Below are positions 40,658 through 52,866 of a DNA stretch of 64,000 nt, piece by piece. The notes beneath the pieces were generated by a model. It was not told where the DNA came from and did no database searches. It was given only the letters and a program-made list of their open reading frames with translations. Made by a program: the position numbers and the translations under genes. This stretch comes from a bacterium (GTDB taxonomy: Bacteria; UBA8248; JACPRG01; G963555815), in assembly GCA_965261595.1 (NCBI GenBank), contig CBDHDG010000007.1, forward strand, positions 864,001 to 928,000, given 5' to 3'. The first letter of the stretch is position 1. Every line of letters starts with the position of its first letter.

Positions 40658-40943
40658 CGGCCCGTGGTCCTGTTGGGGCCGTTTCGGGTTTCCGGCGATG
40701 GAGGATGTAGATTTTCACTCTTTCGATTGCTTCCATGTTTTCCAAGAGATGTATTTAAAGAGTTAAAGTTTTACTTGATTGTTCCCGCCAAATGCGCCAA
40801 AGTGGACGAAGGTCGATGGTTGGAGCCATCGTAATTCGAGGGCGCAGGGGATTTTGGAAGTTTTGAATCACATTCGGAATTTGAAGCGGTTGATCGAGCC
40901 GTTCCGGGGATGGGCCCGAAGGGGGCGTCTCCGATTTTGCCGA

Positions 40944-41621
40944 ATGTCGATCGTCCCGGCCGGACTGATCTTCGCCTTGCTCGGGTTCGGCGCCGCCCAT
41001 GCCGGAGAAATCAACATCGTCGCCTTCGGCGGGATTTATGACGCCTTCGGCGCGGACGCCAGCCTCTCGGACACCCCGTCTTCACGCGAGCCGGATGACG
41101 TGGTATTCAAGACGGGGAGGATTTACGCGGTGCGTTTCGAGGGCTTCAGCACCAGCACCCATTCAGATTTCTTCGGTTTTGGAATCGGGCTTTCGTATAT
41201 CCAGCGGGAATTCACTTTGCGCACCAAGGAATCCACCTTCCGAAGGACGGATGTCGAATCCGACATCCTTGAAATCAGCATGAGCGCCATGTTCCGCCGC
41301 CCGAGCGGCTGGATCCGGCCCTACGGGGGAACGGGGCTGTCGGTGTTGCTCGTCGATGAATCGTTGAAGGACAGGCGAGAGGAAACCACCGGGACGGTCA
41401 CCCAAAACTCGTCGATTTCATCCAACGACGTCGGTTGGCATTTTTTCAGCGGGGTGAAGGTCTTCCAGCCTGAAAGCCTTTTCCCGAATATGCCGGGCCG
41501 GTTCTTCCTGGTGGGTGAATATCGTTACCTCTGGGCGAATGTCGTTGCGGAGGGAAAGTCGGGGTTCAGAAGTCTGAAAGACCAAATCAACGGACAGTTT
41601 TTTCCGTATTTATATACTTGA
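40944..41621 (+). pseudogene. Outer-membrane beta-barrel (OmpA/porin-like) protein, C-terminus apparently truncated
   Basis: Signal peptide ending AHA; IRPYGGTGLS and alternating beta-strands; the last strand runs into the inverted repeat and lacks a terminal aromatic residue. Confidence 0.65.
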
Positions 41622-41689
41622 CACAGACGACCACAACATGTAGGTCGCGCCCGCGTCTCGGCTGACCACAAGATGTAGGGGCATGCTTC
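41610..41689 (+). repeat. 80-bp inverted repeat, left arm (promoter, two NrdR-like boxes, RBS/ATG)
   Basis: 75/80 identical to the reverse complement of 42428-42507 by manual alignment. Confidence 0.95.
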
Positions 41690-41734
41690 CATCGATCCGT
41701 TTCCAGAAGATGCGCTCTATCAGATCGTTCGGTT

Positions 41735-42350
41735 TCATTGATCGATAAAATCCACGCGCTGAATATCGCCCTTTTCATTGAAGTGTAAAAACAACTTTTT
41801 GTTTATATGCAATGTGTTGTTGGTTTTTCCTTTTCTTCCGTACTTAAACTCAAATTCAAGACCGCCCTCAAAAACGCCGCTTCTCTTCTGCTCTATAGGA
41901 TATGTAGTGATCGTCAAACCACCCCATCCCTCCTGCAGGGATGGTATAGCTATTCTTGGCATATGGCTCTTTTGTCGGGTACAACTTATCAAATGTTGAG
42001 ACGACATTTACAACCTCAAATGTCACCGGGAAAAGAGCTTTGTTGTTAAACGTAGCACCAATCCGCAGTGATTTTACTACACCAGCTTTGTCGATTATTC
42101 TGTCAGTTCTCACACTATGAAAGTTAAGCATATCCGCAACTCTATTACGATACCGCCATTCGCTGAATCGCAACAATCCCATAGAGGAAACTGAAAACAG
42201 AATGACCGCTCCAACATATAGGTTGAACAACTGGATATGTTGCGCAAAACCGATCGTGACGCCAGCCGCCGTGACCGCAATGGGCCATATCCAGCTCCGC
42301 AGTAATTCACCCGCCAAAAAGAGGGCGACTTTGCGAAGCCAATTGAGCAT
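41735..42350 (-). pseudogene. Low-GC hypothetical membrane protein (about 2 TM plus soluble domain), frameshift near 41900
   Basis: ORF 42350-41868 (...WFDDHYI) continues naturally in the frame ending at 41735 (PIEQKRSGVFEGGLEFEFKYG...DFIDQ). Confidence 0.65.
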
Positions 42351-42359
42351 GATTCAGTC

Positions 42360-42388
42360 ATTGTATGATCCCTCTTCGGTTGAGTCAA
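42360..42388 (-). promoter_or_regulatory. Near-consensus sigma70 promoter for the cassette gene (near-leaderless)
   Basis: TTGACT-N17-TACAAT; ATG follows 9 nt after the -10 box. Confidence 0.65.
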
Positions 42389-42427
42389 GCGCATAATTGC
42401 GAATCCAACTCCACCATGACTTGAGTT

Positions 42428-42507
42428 GAAGCATGCCCCTACATCTTGTGGTCAGCCGAGACGCGGGGACGATCTACATGTTGTGGTCGTCTGCGTCAAG
42501 TACATAA
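42428..42507 (-). repeat. 80-bp inverted repeat, right arm
   Basis: Partner of 41610-41689. Confidence 0.95.
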
Positions 42508-42592
42508 TTCCGATCATCCTGGGTTAGAAAGCGGAAATGTTAGCGGAGTTCGGGGATGGGATCAAAGAAATAAGGGCGCGTCGCAAAGGGCG

Positions 42593-43996
42593 TCATTTCC
42601 CTATACAAAACTCCCGGAAGATTCCGTCCAGAAGGTCCTCGTTGAAATCTTTTCCCAACAGACCCCCCAGGGCGTTCATGGCTTCGGTGAGATCGACGGC
42701 GACAAGCTCGGGCGAGAGGCCCGCCTTCATGGCCTCGATGGCCGCGCCGACGAATTCGGCGGCCGCCTTGACGCGCTCGCGGTGGCGCTCGCGCGTGAGC
42801 AAAAGCTCCTCGTCCGCCGACCCCCCCCCCAGGACAGTCTCGACCATGAGGGCCTCCAGGGCCTTCAGGCCATCCCCCCGCAGGGCCGAAACCCGCGCGA
42901 ACCGTCCATCCGGAAAAAGCCGCCCGGCCTCCTCCGGACTGACGGCCGACCCCAGATCGGCCTTGTTCAGAACCCCGATGACCGCCGGACCGGACGGGGG
43001 GGGCGGGGGGGGGGAGGCGGCAAGCTCGCTCAGGATGGTCCTGTCTTCATCCGTCAGGGGGACCGAGGCGTCCAGGACGAGGAGGATCAGCGAGGCCGAC
43101 CCCGCCATCCGCCAGGCCCGCTCTACGCCCGCGCGCTCGACCGGGTCCGCCGATTCCCGCAGGCCGGCAGTGTCGATAAAGCGGAAAGGGATCCCGCCGA
43201 TGACGGCCGTCTCCTCGATGGTGTCCCGGGTCGTTCCGGGCACGGGGCTCGTGAGGGCGCGGTCCTCTCGCAAGAGCAGATTCAGGAGCGAGGACTTGCC
43301 GACGTTCGGCCGGCCGACGATGGCCGCCGGCGTCCCCTCGCGGATGGCCCGTCCCGCGTGAAAACTCCGCAGCAGAAACTCCAGCCGTTCGAGCGCGCCG
43401 CCCGCCCGTTCGACCAAACGGGCCGAGGCCTGGATCTCGATGTCCTCATCGGGGAAATCGATGGCCGCCTCGAGTTGGGCGGCAATCCCGATCAGCTCTT
43501 TCCACACCGCCTCCAGCTCCCGCGAGAGTCTCCCGGAGAGGTGTCCCAGCGCCGCCCGGAGGCCCGCCTCGGAGCGCGCCGCGATCAGGTCCGCAACCGC
43601 TTCGGCCTGAACGAGGTCCATCCGGCCGTTCAGAAAGGCGCGCCGCGTGAACTCGCCCGGCCCGGCCGGCGAAGCGCCGCGATCGATCAAGAGCCGCAGG
43701 ATCGCGCGGAGAGAGAAGGGACCGCCGTGGCCGTGAATCTCGGCGACGTCCTCGCCCGTGTAGGAGTGCGGGCCGGGCATAACCGCCAGGAGACACTCGT
43801 CGAGGACTTCGCCCGTCTCAGGGTTCGTCACATGGCCGTGGAGCAGTTTTCTGGGTGAGAACTCCGGGAAGGGGTCGCCTTGCGGCGTGCGGAAAATTTC
43901 GTGTGCGAGATCGAGAGCCCGGGGGCCGCTGAGACGGATAATCCCGACGGCCCCTTCGCCCGGCGCCGTTGCGATGGCGGCGATGGTCTCGGTCAC
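42593..43996 (-). CDS. mnmE: tRNA modification GTPase MnmE
   Basis: TIAAIATAPG, GRPNVGKSSL, DTAGLR and FCIGK motifs; start may be 44071. Confidence 0.96.
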   Translation of the reverse strand: MTETIAAIATAPGEGAVGIIRLSGPRALDLAHEIFRTPQGDPFPEFSPRKLLHGHVTNPETGEVLDECLLAVMPGPHSYTGEDVAEIHGHGGPFSLRAILRLLIDRGASPAGPGEFTRRAFLNGRMDLVQAEAVADLIAARSEAGLRAALGHLSGRLSRELEAVWKELIGIAAQLEAAIDFPDEDIEIQASARLVERAGGALERLEFLLRSFHAGRAIREGTPAAIVGRPNVGKSSLLNLLLREDRALTSPVPGTTRDTIEETAVIGGIPFRFIDTAGLRESADPVERAGVERAWRMAGSASLILLVLDASVPLTDEDRTILSELAASPPPPPPSGPAVIGVLNKADLGSAVSPEEAGRLFPDGRFARVSALRGDGLKALEALMVETVLGGGSADEELLLTRERHRERVKAAAEFVGAAIEAMKAGLSPELVAVDLTEAMNALGGLLGKDFNEDLLDGIFREFCIGK

Positions 43997-46800: not shown

Positions 46801-47179
46801 TCTGGCCTTCTTCAGGAATTTCTCCGCCGGGCCCGCCCTTGGACGCACGCCTTAGCGAGCGCTCCAACTGCCAGCAAAGCGCCCCAAATGTCAGCCGCTC
46901 GATTCCGGGTCTCGCGACGATGATCACATCCGCGCCCGCCGCCAAGCCGGCGCTCGCTCTGAAGGCCGCTTTAAGACGCCGCCGGACGAGGTTTCTAATC
47001 ACCGCGTTCCCGACCCGGCGGGAAACCGACAACCCCAGGCGCGCCCCCCCGGCCGGGCAACAATCCACCGGCGCGGGCTCGGCATAGAGCCGGTAGCTCT
47101 GGGTCCGATCGGCCGGAACCCGCGAGCAAACCCGGTTGAAGTCTCTATGCTTTAGGCGGCCAACTGTCTTTGGGGTCAT
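46718..47179 (-). CDS. rnpA: Ribonuclease P protein component
   Basis: RLGLSVSRRVGNAVIRNLVRRRLK; C-terminal tail overlaps yidD. Confidence 0.9.
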   Translation of the reverse strand: MTPKTVGRLKHRDFNRVCSRVPADRTQSYRLYAEPAPVDCCPAGGARLGLSVSRRVGNAVIRNLVRRRLKAAFRASAGLAAGADVIIVARPGIERLTFGALCWQLERSLRRASKGGPGGEIPEEGQNATDQVSPGDAGSALPDPAVSPSAANL

Positions 47180-47211
47180 TCCAGCGGCCACGGGAAGTGA
47201 GGCCCTCCGCC

Positions 47212-47346
47212 TTAAACGGTCAGGCGCTTTCGGCCCTTTCTCCGTCGTCTGCTCAAGACCCTCCGACCCGAACTGGACGACATTCTCGCAAAAAAGCCGT
47301 GCGTCCGGGCCCGCTTGATCCTGGAGGGCTGGTATGTTCGCTTCAC
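47212..47346 (-). CDS. rpmH: 50S ribosomal protein L34
   Basis: Manual [47 protein letters not shown] after an AAGGAGG RBS. Confidence 0.97.
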
Positions 47347-47683
47347 GCAACAGTTCCTCCTTCGCTCGCCGGGGTGACAACCCCGGCCGCGATTGAGCCC
47401 CAGAACTCTCGGGCAAATTAAGTTTAGATTTCTGAAGCCCGGGTGTCAAGTTCGCTAACTTTTTTGTTGAAAAATCCATCCGGGTCTGGTATGATCCAGT
47501 ACTCGAAAAGGGGGTTTCCGTGTGGTGGGTGGACAACACACAACCCATTGATTCCATGCCTGTTGTTTCTATCCTGAGTCCAGGGTTCCTGTGTTTCATT
47601 TTAACCCTCGAATGGGGTGGTTTCCCGAGACCATAAACACATGTTGAAAACGCTCCACCTCATCTATAAATAAAGGGTTATCC

Positions 47684-49042
47684 ATGGATGGCATGTCGGT
47701 TATCAACACGGAAACCGGGAAGATTTGGAGTGATTTACTGGATCGCGCCAGAAAGGTGACGCGAGAGCAGGCGGTTGAAACCTGGCTCATGCCGGTCAAG
47801 CCCCTTGGCCTCGACGGGTCGACCCTAAACCTCCTTGTCCCCAACCGATTCTTTCGCGAATATCTCCAAGATCGATTCGCGTCCGTCCTCTCCGATGGTC
47901 TTCGGGAAATAACCGGTCGGGATTTCACCCTGAACCTGATTGTCGACGACACGGCGGGCGATGATTCTCCGCCCCCTCCCTCGCCAAGACCGGAAGAGAG
48001 GGCCGTGGGCGCGCCCAGGCACTCGGGAGTTCTTGATGAGAAATACACCTTTGAGCGGTTTATTGTGGGCAGCTCGAACCAGTTTGCGCATGCGGCGGCC
48101 GAAGCGGTGGCCAAGAACCCCGCCACGGCGTACAACCCCCTGTTCCTCTATGGTGCCGTCGGTCTGGGGAAAACCCACCTCATGCACGCCATCGGCCGGC
48201 ACATCCTGGAGAACAACCCGAGCGCTCATCTCATCTACACCTCCTCAGAGGATTTCACCATCGAGTTGATCAACGCCATCCGCCGGGATCGAATGACGGC
48301 CTTCCGGGAAAAACACCGGCGCATGGATGTCCTCCTTGTCGACGACATCCAGTTCATCGCGGGCAAGGACCGCACCCAGGAGGAGTTCTTTCACACCTTT
48401 AACACCTTATATGAATCCAAGAAGCAGATCGTTATTTCCAGCGACAAGTTCCCGAAGGAAATGGTCGAGCTGGAAGAGCGCCTCCGATCGCGGTTTGAAT
48501 GGGGGCTCGTCGCCGACATTCAATCACCCGACTTGGAAACCAAGGTTGCCATCCTCACAAAAAAAGCGGAGGAAAGCGGGGTCGACCTGCCGCAAGATGT
48601 CGCGCTGCTCGTGGCCAAGAAAATCAGGACGAACATCCGTGAGCTTGAGGGTTGTCTCATCCGCCTCTCCGCGTTCAGCTCCCTGATAAAGCGGCCCATC
48701 TCCGTCGAGATGGCGGAAGAAATCCTCGAACAAATGTTCTATGACGAACAGCATTCGATTTCTATCGACAGCATCCAAAAGGCGGTCGCGGCTCACTTTT
48801 CGATGAGGGTTACGGACCTGAAATCCAAGCGCCGCCATCGAAGCATCGCCGAGCCCCGGCAAATCGCGATGTTTCTGGCAAGGGAGCTCACCGGCGCCTC
48901 CCTCTCGGAAATCGGACAAAAATTCGGCGGTAAAGACCACAGCACGGTCATTCACTCATGTAACAAGATTGCGAACATGAAAGACAAAGACAGCCGGATT
49001 ATATCCGCGTTGAACCAAATCCGCCGCGCGCTTAATGTGTGA
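47684..49042 (+). CDS. dnaA: Chromosomal replication initiator DnaA
   Basis: YNPLFLYGAVGLGKTHL, DDIQF, RLRSRFEWG and GGKDHSTV motifs. Confidence 0.98.
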   Translation: MDGMSVINTETGKIWSDLLDRARKVTREQAVETWLMPVKPLGLDGSTLNLLVPNRFFREYLQDRFASVLSDGLREITGRDFTLNLIVDDTAGDDSPPPPSPRPEERAVGAPRHSGVLDEKYTFERFIVGSSNQFAHAAAEAVAKNPATAYNPLFLYGAVGLGKTHLMHAIGRHILENNPSAHLIYTSSEDFTIELINAIRRDRMTAFREKHRRMDVLLVDDIQFIAGKDRTQEEFFHTFNTLYESKKQIVISSDKFPKEMVELEERLRSRFEWGLVADIQSPDLETKVAILTKKAEESGVDLPQDVALLVAKKIRTNIRELEGCLIRLSAFSSLIKRPISVEMAEEILEQMFYDEQHSISIDSIQKAVAAHFSMRVTDLKSKRRHRSIAEPRQIAMFLARELTGASLSEIGQKFGGKDHSTVIHSCNKIANMKDKDSRIISALNQIRRALNV

Positions 49043-49249
49043 ATACAGGGTTTAGTGATGGGGGAAAATATGTGTAAAAAAAAGGCCTCTGGTTTCTGTT
49101 GTGGATTTCCTGATATTTCTCAACAAAAAATCCAGCCGCTATCCCGTTGTAATTCCAGCCCCAATACCTGTTTTCCACGTTTCCACAACCCCTTCTCCTA
49201 TAACTATCTTTATTTCTATATTTATTAAAGAAGGAACTTATTCATCGTT
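49043..49249. other. Replication origin oriC (DnaA boxes, DnaA-trios, AT-rich DUE)
   Basis: TGTGTAAAA (49071); tandem TTTTCCACG/GTTTCCACA (49171-49187); C-rich spacer; then CTT CTC CTA TAA CTA TCT TTA TTT CTA TAT TTA TTA (49192-49227). Weaker boxes also lie upstream of dnaA. Confidence 0.85.

Positions 49250-52866
<3,617 letters not shown>

What the first reader, a model, noticed from the sequence alone, without database searches (positions are those of the whole stretch)
41610..42507. 898-bp cassette bounded by 80-bp inverted repeats, each a complete expression signal with two NrdR-like boxes
Seen: arms 41610-41689 and 42428-42507 match at 75/80. All 5 differences lie in the outer 40 bp and the inner 40 bp are identical. 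Reading inward, each arm has TTGAC(A/G)-N17-TAG(G/A)TC, two copies of CCACAA(C/G)ATGTAG starting 35 bp apart, then TAGGGGC-ATG-CTTC. The cargo is a low-GC orphan membrane-protein gene, and no transposase or recombinase is adjacent. Known: the boxes match the NrdR operator core CwAnATnTwG. NrdR senses ATP/dATP and usually represses ribonucleotide reductase genes through tandem boxes about 31-32 bp apart, so the 35-bp spacing is atypical, and no nrd gene is nearby. Inference: either a non-autonomous mobile or invertible unit putting cargo under nucleotide-pool control (e.g. a membrane effector derepressed on dNTP depletion during phage infection), or an inversion switch that swaps two promoter variants onto the cargo.
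Basis: partly seen in the sequence, partly recalled or inferred. Interest (0 to 1): 0.85.

Follow-up and report, generated by a model that had tools for sequence, protein, structure and literature searches.

The report
Transposase-less IS1595 cassette, NrdR-like ends
This is a 908-base mobile gene cassette that has copied itself eleven times in this genome by borrowing the enzyme of related insertion sequences; its ends carry paired sites that look like those of the nucleotide sensor NrdR but are spaced wrongly for ordinary repression, so they probably help the cassette move rather than control its gene.

Summary
The repeats are real (75/80), but the element is larger: window 41605-42512, 908 bp, ending in CG at both sides. 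It has 11 near-identical copies. Six have intact 8-bp target duplications; 8 of the other 10 flanks cross-match between copies. Its ends match transposase-encoding IS1595 elements in the same genome. It keeps a remnant of their small antisense gene and an inner IS end that supplies the cargo's own promoter. So it is a non-autonomous IS1595 insertion cassette, not an inversion switch: 0 of 11 copies are flipped. The cargo is no orphan. It is a 204-aa two-helix plus Ig-like protein (401 clusters), frameshifted in 10 of 11 copies, and rides in IS1595 elements elsewhere. The boxes score like the host's own NrdR operators. They are doubled at all 6 ends of the transposase-less families and at 0 of 10 ends of the autonomous ones. 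But they lie 35 bp apart, whereas host operators lie 31-32 bp apart, and NrdR binds that spacing 13-283 times worse. They most likely act in transposition; whether NrdR or an IS-encoded protein binds them is open. The scan noted other copies of this family in the same genome before.

The parts
41605..42512 (.). Whole non-autonomous IS1595-type cassette, 908 bp, CG at both ends; one of 11 copies (907-908 bp, at most 3 differences)
41597..41604 (+). Left 8-bp target sequence; its duplicate is now the right flank of the copy at G000:C6:1667271 (flanks exchanged between copies)
42513..42520 (+). Right 8-bp target sequence; its duplicate is the left flank of the C6:1667271 copy
41605..41689 (+). 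Left arm (85 bp); terminal core 41605-41622 matches the ends of autonomous IS1595 elements at 13-16 of 18
41631..41646 (+). Left box 1 (NrdR-like, PWM 12.9), at the position of the spacer and -10 of the ancestral IS end promoter
41666..41681 (+). Left box 2 (PWM 17.8), 35 bp after box 1
41610..41738 (-). 42-codon frame. Its 5' part (41686-41731) is a remnant of the small antisense gene of the autonomous elements (87% DNA identity over 46 bp to the G006 element). Its ATG overlaps the cargo stop.
41735..42350 (-). Cargo gene: 204 aa when intact (two N-terminal membrane-type helices plus Ig-like beta-sandwich). Here one extra base near 41900 gives a 160-aa frame, 41868-42350.
42360..42401 (-). 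Inner, box-less IS1595 right end (core 42384-42401) with the promoter TTGACT-17-TACAAT 9 nt before the cargo ATG
42436..42451 (-). Right box 2 (PWM 17.8)
42471..42486 (-). Right box 1 (PWM 13.0)
42428..42512 (-). Right arm (85 bp); terminal core 42495-42512
40779..41621 (+). Host outer-membrane beta-barrel gene hit at its last codons; its stop now lies inside the left arm (not part of the element)

Best explanation
A recently active mobile insertion cassette derived from a passenger-carrying IS1595 element. The ancestor had the layout left end - small antisense gene - transposase - passenger - right end. The transposase gene was deleted, which left the passenger coupled to a stump of the small gene and still driven by the promoter in the old right end. 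The piece was then bracketed by two longer, double-box ends. It moves with transposase supplied by intact CG-ended IS1595 elements of the same genome, makes 8-bp AT-rich target duplications, and its copies later exchange flanks. Shown: boundaries, copy number, duplications, end similarity, gene remnants, absence at this site in other populations. Inferred: mobilisation in trans and the order of events. The boxes most likely act on movement, not on cargo expression (about 0.65 by themselves): they are sub-terminal protein sites that make an end preferred. The binder is undecided, NrdR about 0.4 against transposase or the small IS protein about 0.4.
For: 11 copies with at most 3 differences; 6 of 11 have an exact 8-bp duplication and 8 of the other 10 flanks cross-match. 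The genome has 54 PF12762 matches. Three kinds of TSD-bounded autonomous elements with intact 294-295-aa transposases share the terminal core at 13-16 of 18. Both cargo homologs found outside G000, in the 50 other genomes of the phylum searched, lie convergent to an IS1595-type transposase; in G012 this is inside a 1825-bp TSD-bounded element. The small antisense gene is present in 10 of 10 autonomous elements examined, and a remnant is in the cassette. In runs X4, X14 and X16 both flanks stop exactly at 41604 and 42513 and run on into other DNA. Box-blind census: second boxes at 6 of 6 distinct ends of 3 transposase-less families (17 elements) and at 0 of 10 ends of 5 transposase families. 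All 11 inner box-less ends lie inside full cassettes, so every copy moved with the outer end. Autonomous ends keep the final T of the -10 element, cassette ends have lost it.
Against: No transposition or binding was measured. Autonomous elements with intact duplications moved with one weak box or none, so a second box is not strictly needed. Which helper acts is unknown, since none has identical ends. The 25 cassette ends were found by similarity to box-bearing ends and are related by descent, so the statistics overstate; only one search is box-blind, and its TSD pairing missed the 1734-bp cassette. The inner end may be unused for reasons other than its lack of boxes. The scans of the large public collections used a wrong gap length and say nothing about the range of these ends.
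Confidence: 0.9

Rival explanations
1. The boxes are true NrdR sites used in a new way. Being half a turn out of phase, the two boxes of one end cannot share a tetramer, so dATP/ATP-loaded NrdR pairs a box of the left end with one of the right end, or blocks the ends. Transposition is thereby tied to the dNTP state. This concerns the boxes only and is compatible with the cassette identity.
For: The boxes score 12.9-17.8 on a matrix built from 28 nrdJ operator boxes of the phylum (leave-one-out 10.0-22.0). The central AT is kept in 50 of 50 cassette boxes against 10 of 17 autonomous ends. The conservation profile follows the host's operators (Spearman 0.72-0.76) while that of autonomous ends does not (0.13). 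The spacer between boxes is only 58% identical against 87-94% in the boxes. The host NrdR has an intact Zn-ribbon with the RRRR motif. Spacings cluster at 26 and 35-38, never at 31-32.
Against: Bridging of two distant sites by NrdR appears in none of the passages I read. A single box binds at least 530-fold worse (PMC12051234, section 2.7). Two of 26 ends have a permissive spacing, 42 and 43. Avoiding 31-32 is equally explained by selection against NrdR binding. All 5 other hosts checked carry nrdR, so no contrast was available.
Confidence: 0.4
2. The boxes are sub-terminal sites for an IS-encoded protein, either the transposase or the ~50-aa antisense protein. Cassettes doubled and optimised them to compete for a trans-acting transposase, and the likeness to NrdR is incidental.
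For: Box 1 sits at a fixed distance from the end in autonomous elements with 70-75% identical transposases from another family. It is degenerate at 55-58% identity and absent at 43-45%. The right flank of the 16-mer is poorly conserved and the 35/36-bp boxes all point inward, as expected from tandem duplication. The small protein is conserved at 80-92% over about its full length in most of 13 other records.
Against: A chance match to the NrdR consensus at exactly its invariant and degenerate positions is unlikely: 208 sites score 12 or more in 6.2 Mb, many of them these ends. The central AT is lost in 7 of 17 autonomous ends. The Zn-ribbons of NrdR and the transposase show only trivial similarity.
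Confidence: 0.4
3. One reading: NrdR represses the cargo through a canonical operator, so a membrane effector is derepressed on dNTP depletion.
For: Good boxes, nrdR present, a cargo with two membrane-type helices, some residual repression at all spacings in E. coli (PMC12051234, passage of section 2.6).
Against: A 19-bp spacer binds 13-283 times worse than the best short spacer in four NrdRs, and 18-24 bp is derepressed in vivo. The host's own pairs lie at 31 bp (five) and 32 bp (one). The cargo promoter is separate from the boxes. Boxes are on both ends and on cassettes with unrelated cargo. The cargo is frameshifted in 10 of 11 copies. Only 1 of 113 family members has any PADLOC hit, and it is weak.
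Confidence: 0.07
4. An inversion switch, or an assembly fold-back artefact.
For: The inner 40 bp of the arms are identical. Flanks are exchanged between copies, which an assembler could also produce.
Against: 0 of 11 copies have the interior flipped relative to the distinguishable outer arms. No recombinase lies nearby. Both junctions and the interior are present in run X1, and no listed joint changes strand (contigs drop rare variants). The cargo carries its own promoter, so a flip would not change it.
Confidence: 0.03

Closest known systems
Mobile insertion cassettes (MICs), e.g. IS231-MIC231 of Bacillus cereus sensu lato (definition from passages of PMC3129680; the MIC231 paper seen only as a reference there, details recalled)
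   Same: IS ends, no transposase, passenger gene, cognate transposase-encoding IS in the same genome, target duplications
   Different: IS1595-type rather than IS4-type ends; long ends with two palindromic boxes; a nested old IS end used as the cargo promoter
IS1595 family and its passenger-carrying transporter ISs (features from passages of PMC8101967 and PMC3129680; Siguier et al. 2009 seen only as a reference)
   Same: [quoted passage not shown]
   Different: The cassette has no transposase. The subgroup (ISNwi, ISNha5 and others) was not assigned. I found no description of NrdR-like boxes in IS1595 ends.
NrdR operators of ribonucleotide reductase genes (PMC12051234: abstract, passages, sections 2.5 and 2.7)
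   Same: 16-bp box sequence and degeneracy, boxes in pairs, box 1 at a promoter -10 position in the ancestral end
   Different: 35-bp spacing (19-bp spacer) instead of 31-32 or 41-43; present at both ends of a mobile element; not over the promoter of the cargo
Host-factor sites in IS ends (IHF in IS1 and IS10, DnaA, Fis and Dam in IS50; recalled, from no call)
   Same: Sub-terminal host-protein sites that tune transposition to cell state: a working analogy for the NrdR reading
   Different: NrdR is not among the factors I recall or found; binding is untested

Membership tests
IS1595 family (as an insertion sequence) | 8-bp target-site duplication | tested here: met
   6 of 11 copies exact; 8 of the other 10 flanks cross-match
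IS1595 family (as an insertion sequence) | Terminal inverted repeats like those of family transposase elements | tested here: met
   13-16 of the first 18 nt match three kinds of autonomous elements
IS1595 family (as an insertion sequence) | Own transposase gene with DDE_Tnp_IS1595 domain | tested here: not met
   None of the 54 PF12762 matches lies in any copy, so it is a derivative, not an IS
IS1595 family (as an insertion sequence) | Assignment to a named subgroup | not tested
   No ISfinder reference set at hand; best plasmid matches of the helper are at most 39% identical and annotated IS1595 family
Mobile insertion cassette (MIC) | IS ends around a passenger gene, without transposase | tested here: met
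Mobile insertion cassette (MIC) | Cognate intact IS in the same genome | tested here: met
   5 TSD-bounded CG-ended elements of three kinds, with open transposase frames
Mobile insertion cassette (MIC) | Signs of recent mobility | tested here: met
   11 copies at different sites; site not occupied in runs X4, X14, X16
Mobile insertion cassette (MIC) | Mobilisation in trans shown by experiment | not testable with these tools
   needs a transposition assay
Canonical NrdR operator | Box sequence | tested here: met
   PWM 12.9-17.8, within the range of natural boxes
Canonical NrdR operator | Two boxes an integer number of turns apart (31-32 or about 41-43 bp) | tested here: not met
   35 bp at both ends; host pairs at 31-32 bp; Table 5 of PMC12051234
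Canonical NrdR operator | Overlap with the promoter of the regulated gene | tested here: not met
   The cargo promoter lies about 47 bp inside box 2; the arm promoter fails the consensus scan
Canonical NrdR operator | nrdR in the host | tested here: met
   TIGR00244, E 1e-57
Canonical NrdR operator | dATP/ATP-dependent binding | not testable with these tools
   needs MST, EMSA or footprinting
Invertible promoter switch | Both orientations of the interior exist | tested here: not met
   0 of 11 copies flipped; no strand-changing joint listed in 4 runs of contigs, which cannot show rare forms
Invertible promoter switch | Adjacent site-specific recombinase | tested here: not met
   Neighbours are an OMP gene and mnmE

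The most novel reading that the evidence does not exclude
A lineage of IS1595 cassettes has recruited NrdR as a host factor of transposition. Boxes set half a helical turn out of phase cannot be bound in cis, so the dATP/ATP-loaded tetramer bridges or gates the two ends. The elements would then move according to the cell's deoxynucleotide state (replication, phage infection, replication stress). This would be a first role for NrdR outside transcription and a first nucleotide-sensing control of transposition.
Probability: 0.2. Interest if true: 0.8.

Novelty: new variant of a known kind. Interest (0 to 1): 0.4.

Why it matters
The element class is known, so the finding as framed (a regulated or invertible expression cassette) falls. 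What remains of interest is the end design. Transposase-less cassettes in two genera of one family have doubled and tightened a motif that matches the host's NrdR operators, while the autonomous elements have not, and 24 of 26 cassette ends avoid spacings at which NrdR binds well. That poses one testable question: who binds these boxes, and does the dNTP state gate transposition? The cassette also reshapes the host genome (exchanged flanks, an outer-membrane gene cut at its C-terminus). It points to an unnamed family of at least 401 membrane-anchored Ig-like proteins, whose two other members found in this phylum also travel with IS1595 elements.

Tried and rejected
Collection scans for the end motif in genome contigs, metagenome contigs and the phylum used a 10-base gap where the real gap is 9; one search found nothing even in G000. 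Their results (0, 1, 2 and 0 hits) say nothing about the range of these ends; the three hits are ordinary 31-bp pairs. With the right gap, 4 of 51 phylum genomes matched, and 1 viral contig matched without looking like an IS end. The range outside the phylum stays open.

The helper transposase found no relative in viral contigs and only matches of 39% identity or less on plasmids. The cargo has no Pfam family (0 for the query; 3 weak single hits among 113 members), no real PADLOC match, no plasmid match and only unnamed Atlas clusters. Fold searches gave generic Ig-like matches (best Z 8.0; Foldseek E about 4e-4) that show no function. The viral search with the cargo alignment could not run. 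Rfam gave no match. The small antisense protein had no usable Atlas hit. The OMP gene was not found in 4 relatives, so the ancestral gene order could not be checked there. No nrdD was found in G000.

A box at the end of a different, GGG-ended IS1595 element (G000:C7, near 82100) first looked like independent support for a host factor. I rejected it because the box has the same flanking bases as cassette box 2 and lies beside a CG-type end. No RNA run held more than 0.07 of the words, so expression was not tested. Runs X14 and X16 lack cover at 42346-42442; that proves nothing.

Full report
Observation. The two arms are there as described: 75 of 80 bases match, all five differences lie in the outer half, and each arm has two boxes 35 bp apart. 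The repeat finder extends the arms to 85 bp, 41605-41689 and 42428-42512. The interior is 44% GC in a genome of about 63%. The left neighbour is an outer-membrane beta-barrel gene (Pfam E 1e-5, below cut-off) and the right neighbour is mnmE.

It is a multi-copy mobile element. The genome holds 11 full copies of 907-908 bp with at most 3 differences. Six of 11 are flanked by an exact 8-bp duplication; the ten target sequences I tallied are 84% A+T. Of the 10 flanks of the other five copies, 8 match a flank of another copy. The window copy and the copy at C6:1667271 have exchanged flanks. Joined to its matching flank in a script, the OMP gene would end in ...LLGLGFHF, a typical terminal-Phe signal (recalled), instead of ...PYLYT. 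The GC skew on either side of the two copies also fits the exchanged arrangement being the derived one. Whether this is a real inversion or an assembly mis-join I could not tell from contigs. In run X1 both junctions and the interior are present. In X4, X14 and X16 both flanks stop exactly at 41604 and 42513 and continue into other DNA, with no joint between them. So this site is not occupied there, and the two flanks are not natural neighbours.

Its family. The genome has 54 matches to DDE_Tnp_IS1595. Five elements of three kinds, bounded by 8-bp duplications and encoding open 294-295-aa transposases, share the terminal core of the cassette at 13-16 of 18 bases. Eight-base duplications and this domain are the family's marks (PMC8101967, passages). 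IS derivatives that lack a transposase but are moved by a cognate IS are MICs (PMC3129680, passages).

Its origin can be read from the inside. A third IS end lies at 42401 on the minus strand and carries TTGACT-17-TACAAT, 9 nt before the cargo ATG. It is the best of the 4 promoter-like sites in 41500-42620. All 10 autonomous elements examined have a small antisense gene beside the left end. The cassette keeps a stump of it (87% over 46 bp to the G006 element; HMM E 0.002 among 3 frames), whose ATG overlaps the cargo stop. The cargo's two homologs in the 50 other phylum genomes searched both lie convergent to an IS1595-type transposase, one inside a 1825-bp element with an intact duplication. 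The cassette is thus a transporter IS that lost its transposase and gained new, longer ends; the order of events is inferred.

Cargo. The 204-aa form is intact in 1 of 11 copies (C7:234873). Ten carry one extra base near window 41900 and give 160 aa. Run X1 shows the frameshifted allele and run X4 the intact one, so the frameshift arose before most of the expansion and the cargo is not needed for it. The family has 401 clusters at E 0.001 or better. The model from 113 sequences is confident (pLDDT 95, pTM 0.80): two long helices, then a beta-sandwich. Fold matches are generic Ig-like. No Pfam or PADLOC family fits. A membrane-anchored role is inferred from hydrophobicity; a defence role is not supported by any search.

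The boxes: for NrdR. The host has nrdR with the Zn-ribbon RRRR motif and one reductase gene with a 31-bp box pair. On a matrix from 28 operator boxes of the phylum (picked with a recalled consensus), the four boxes score 12.9-17.8, against 10.0-22.0 for natural boxes left out in turn. Across 25 distinct cassette ends from G000 and G006 the central AT is kept in 50 of 50 boxes, against 10 of 17 autonomous ends. The conservation profile follows the host's operators (rho 0.72-0.76, against 0.13), and the DNA between the boxes is only 58% identical. These ends are related and were found by similarity, so the numbers overstate. A search on the terminal core alone (121 hits, 34 in a shuffle) gave 22 TSD-bounded pairs in 8 families: second boxes at 6 of 6 ends of the 3 transposase-less families and at 0 of 10 ends of the 5 transposase families.

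The boxes: against a normal operator. The host's own pairs lie at 31 bp (five) and 32 bp (one). Five of 7 family genomes gave an nrdJ pair, at 31-32 bp. Cassette ends lie at 35 (11 ends), 36 (7), 26 (4), 37, 38 and 43 (1 each), plus one at 42; only 2 of 26 are permissive. With a 19-bp spacer four NrdRs bind 13-283 times worse than with their best short spacer, spacers of 18-24 bp are derepressed in E. coli, and one box alone binds at least 530 times worse (PMC12051234: abstract, passages, sections 2.5 and 2.7; supplements not read). The arm 'promoter' fails the consensus scan, the arm ATGs open 21 and 26 codons, and the cargo promoter is separate. Autonomous ends keep the last T of the -10 element; cassette ends have lost it. 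Box 1 also follows transposase descent: present at 70-75% identity in another family, degenerate at 55-58%, absent at 43-45%. All 5 other hosts tested have nrdR, so no contrast was possible. In the three genomes of the other family where tandem pairs were found (of 4 searched), they lie at 30-31 bp.

Mechanism. The boxes are doubled only in elements that must borrow a transposase, sit on both ends whatever the cargo, and every copy moved with the outer double-box end rather than the box-less inner end 111 bp inside. I therefore read them as sites that act on movement (about 0.65). The binder is either NrdR, working across the two ends or as a brake (0.4), or an IS-encoded protein (0.4). Control of the cargo (0.07) and an inversion switch (0.03) are unlikely; 0 of 11 copies are flipped.

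Literature. Searches for NrdR with IS1595 and with transposon, inverted repeats and mobile element gave 0 papers. Searches listed 1 and 8 papers that I saw only as listings, none on this topic by title or abstract start. The library lacks most subscription journals; Siguier et al. 2009 and De Palmenaer et al. 2004 I saw only as references.

Earlier notes of this scan reached the same class for other copies in this genome and favoured transposase sites; a search by sequence found no other genome. I had the identity before opening them. My tests add the box-blind census, the origin of the cassette, and the point that sequence evidence for NrdR is stronger than the spacing argument alone suggests.

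Verdict. A real, recently mobile IS1595-derived insertion cassette: a known kind with an undescribed end design. Interest 0.4. The bold reading, dNTP-gated transposition through NrdR, has about 0.2 probability and would deserve 0.8.

Noticed in passing
window 40779-41621 and G000:C6:1668179 onward: The insertion hit the last codons of an outer-membrane beta-barrel gene; the part that would give a terminal Phe now lies beside another copy on contig C6.
   Followed up: partly
G000:C6:1740928, C1:205130, C7:790278, C2:98756, C6:1127359: Five further in-phase (31-32 bp) NrdR box pairs besides nrdJ. One lies before a MazG-like gene and one before a Vsr-like endonuclease and DNA methylase (names recalled from the sequences, not from a call).
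   Followed up: partly
L071:166-321 (-) and the other autonomous elements: A ~50-aa basic, probably helical protein is encoded antisense beside the left end in 10 of 10 autonomous elements of this clade; no family match; a candidate regulator.
   Followed up: partly
G000:C5:343476-344433 and copies; C7:790727-793347; C7:1227710-1229443; C7:1038945-1040149; G006:C1:944724-945492 and 384261-385104: Several other transposase-less double-box cassettes with unrelated cargo; the 958-bp one occurs in a 1315-bp form with an extra internal unit.
   Followed up: partly
G000:C7:8746-30300 and C3:129361: Two inverted copies 20 kb apart and a third copy have exchanged flanks, consistent with an inversion between copies; two flanks remain unmatched.
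   Followed up: partly
L068:1366-1424 and L069:1392-1450: Metagenome contigs with a canonical 31-bp NrdR-type pair between a scaffold-like and a capsid-like gene (gene names are my impression from the sequences).
   Followed up: no
G000:C6:352755-356887: A GGC-ended IS1595 element carrying a 539-aa passenger with a C-terminal HNH-like motif (recalled) is nested in a double-box cassette.
   Followed up: no
window 1-41000 versus 47000-50000: GC skew is positive up to the cassette although the dnaA/oriC region lies just beyond it, which fits a recent rearrangement or mis-join at this copy.
   Followed up: partly
G000:C4:419286 (-): An isolated IS1595-type end whose two boxes are 42 bp apart, a spacing NrdR tolerates.
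   Followed up: no
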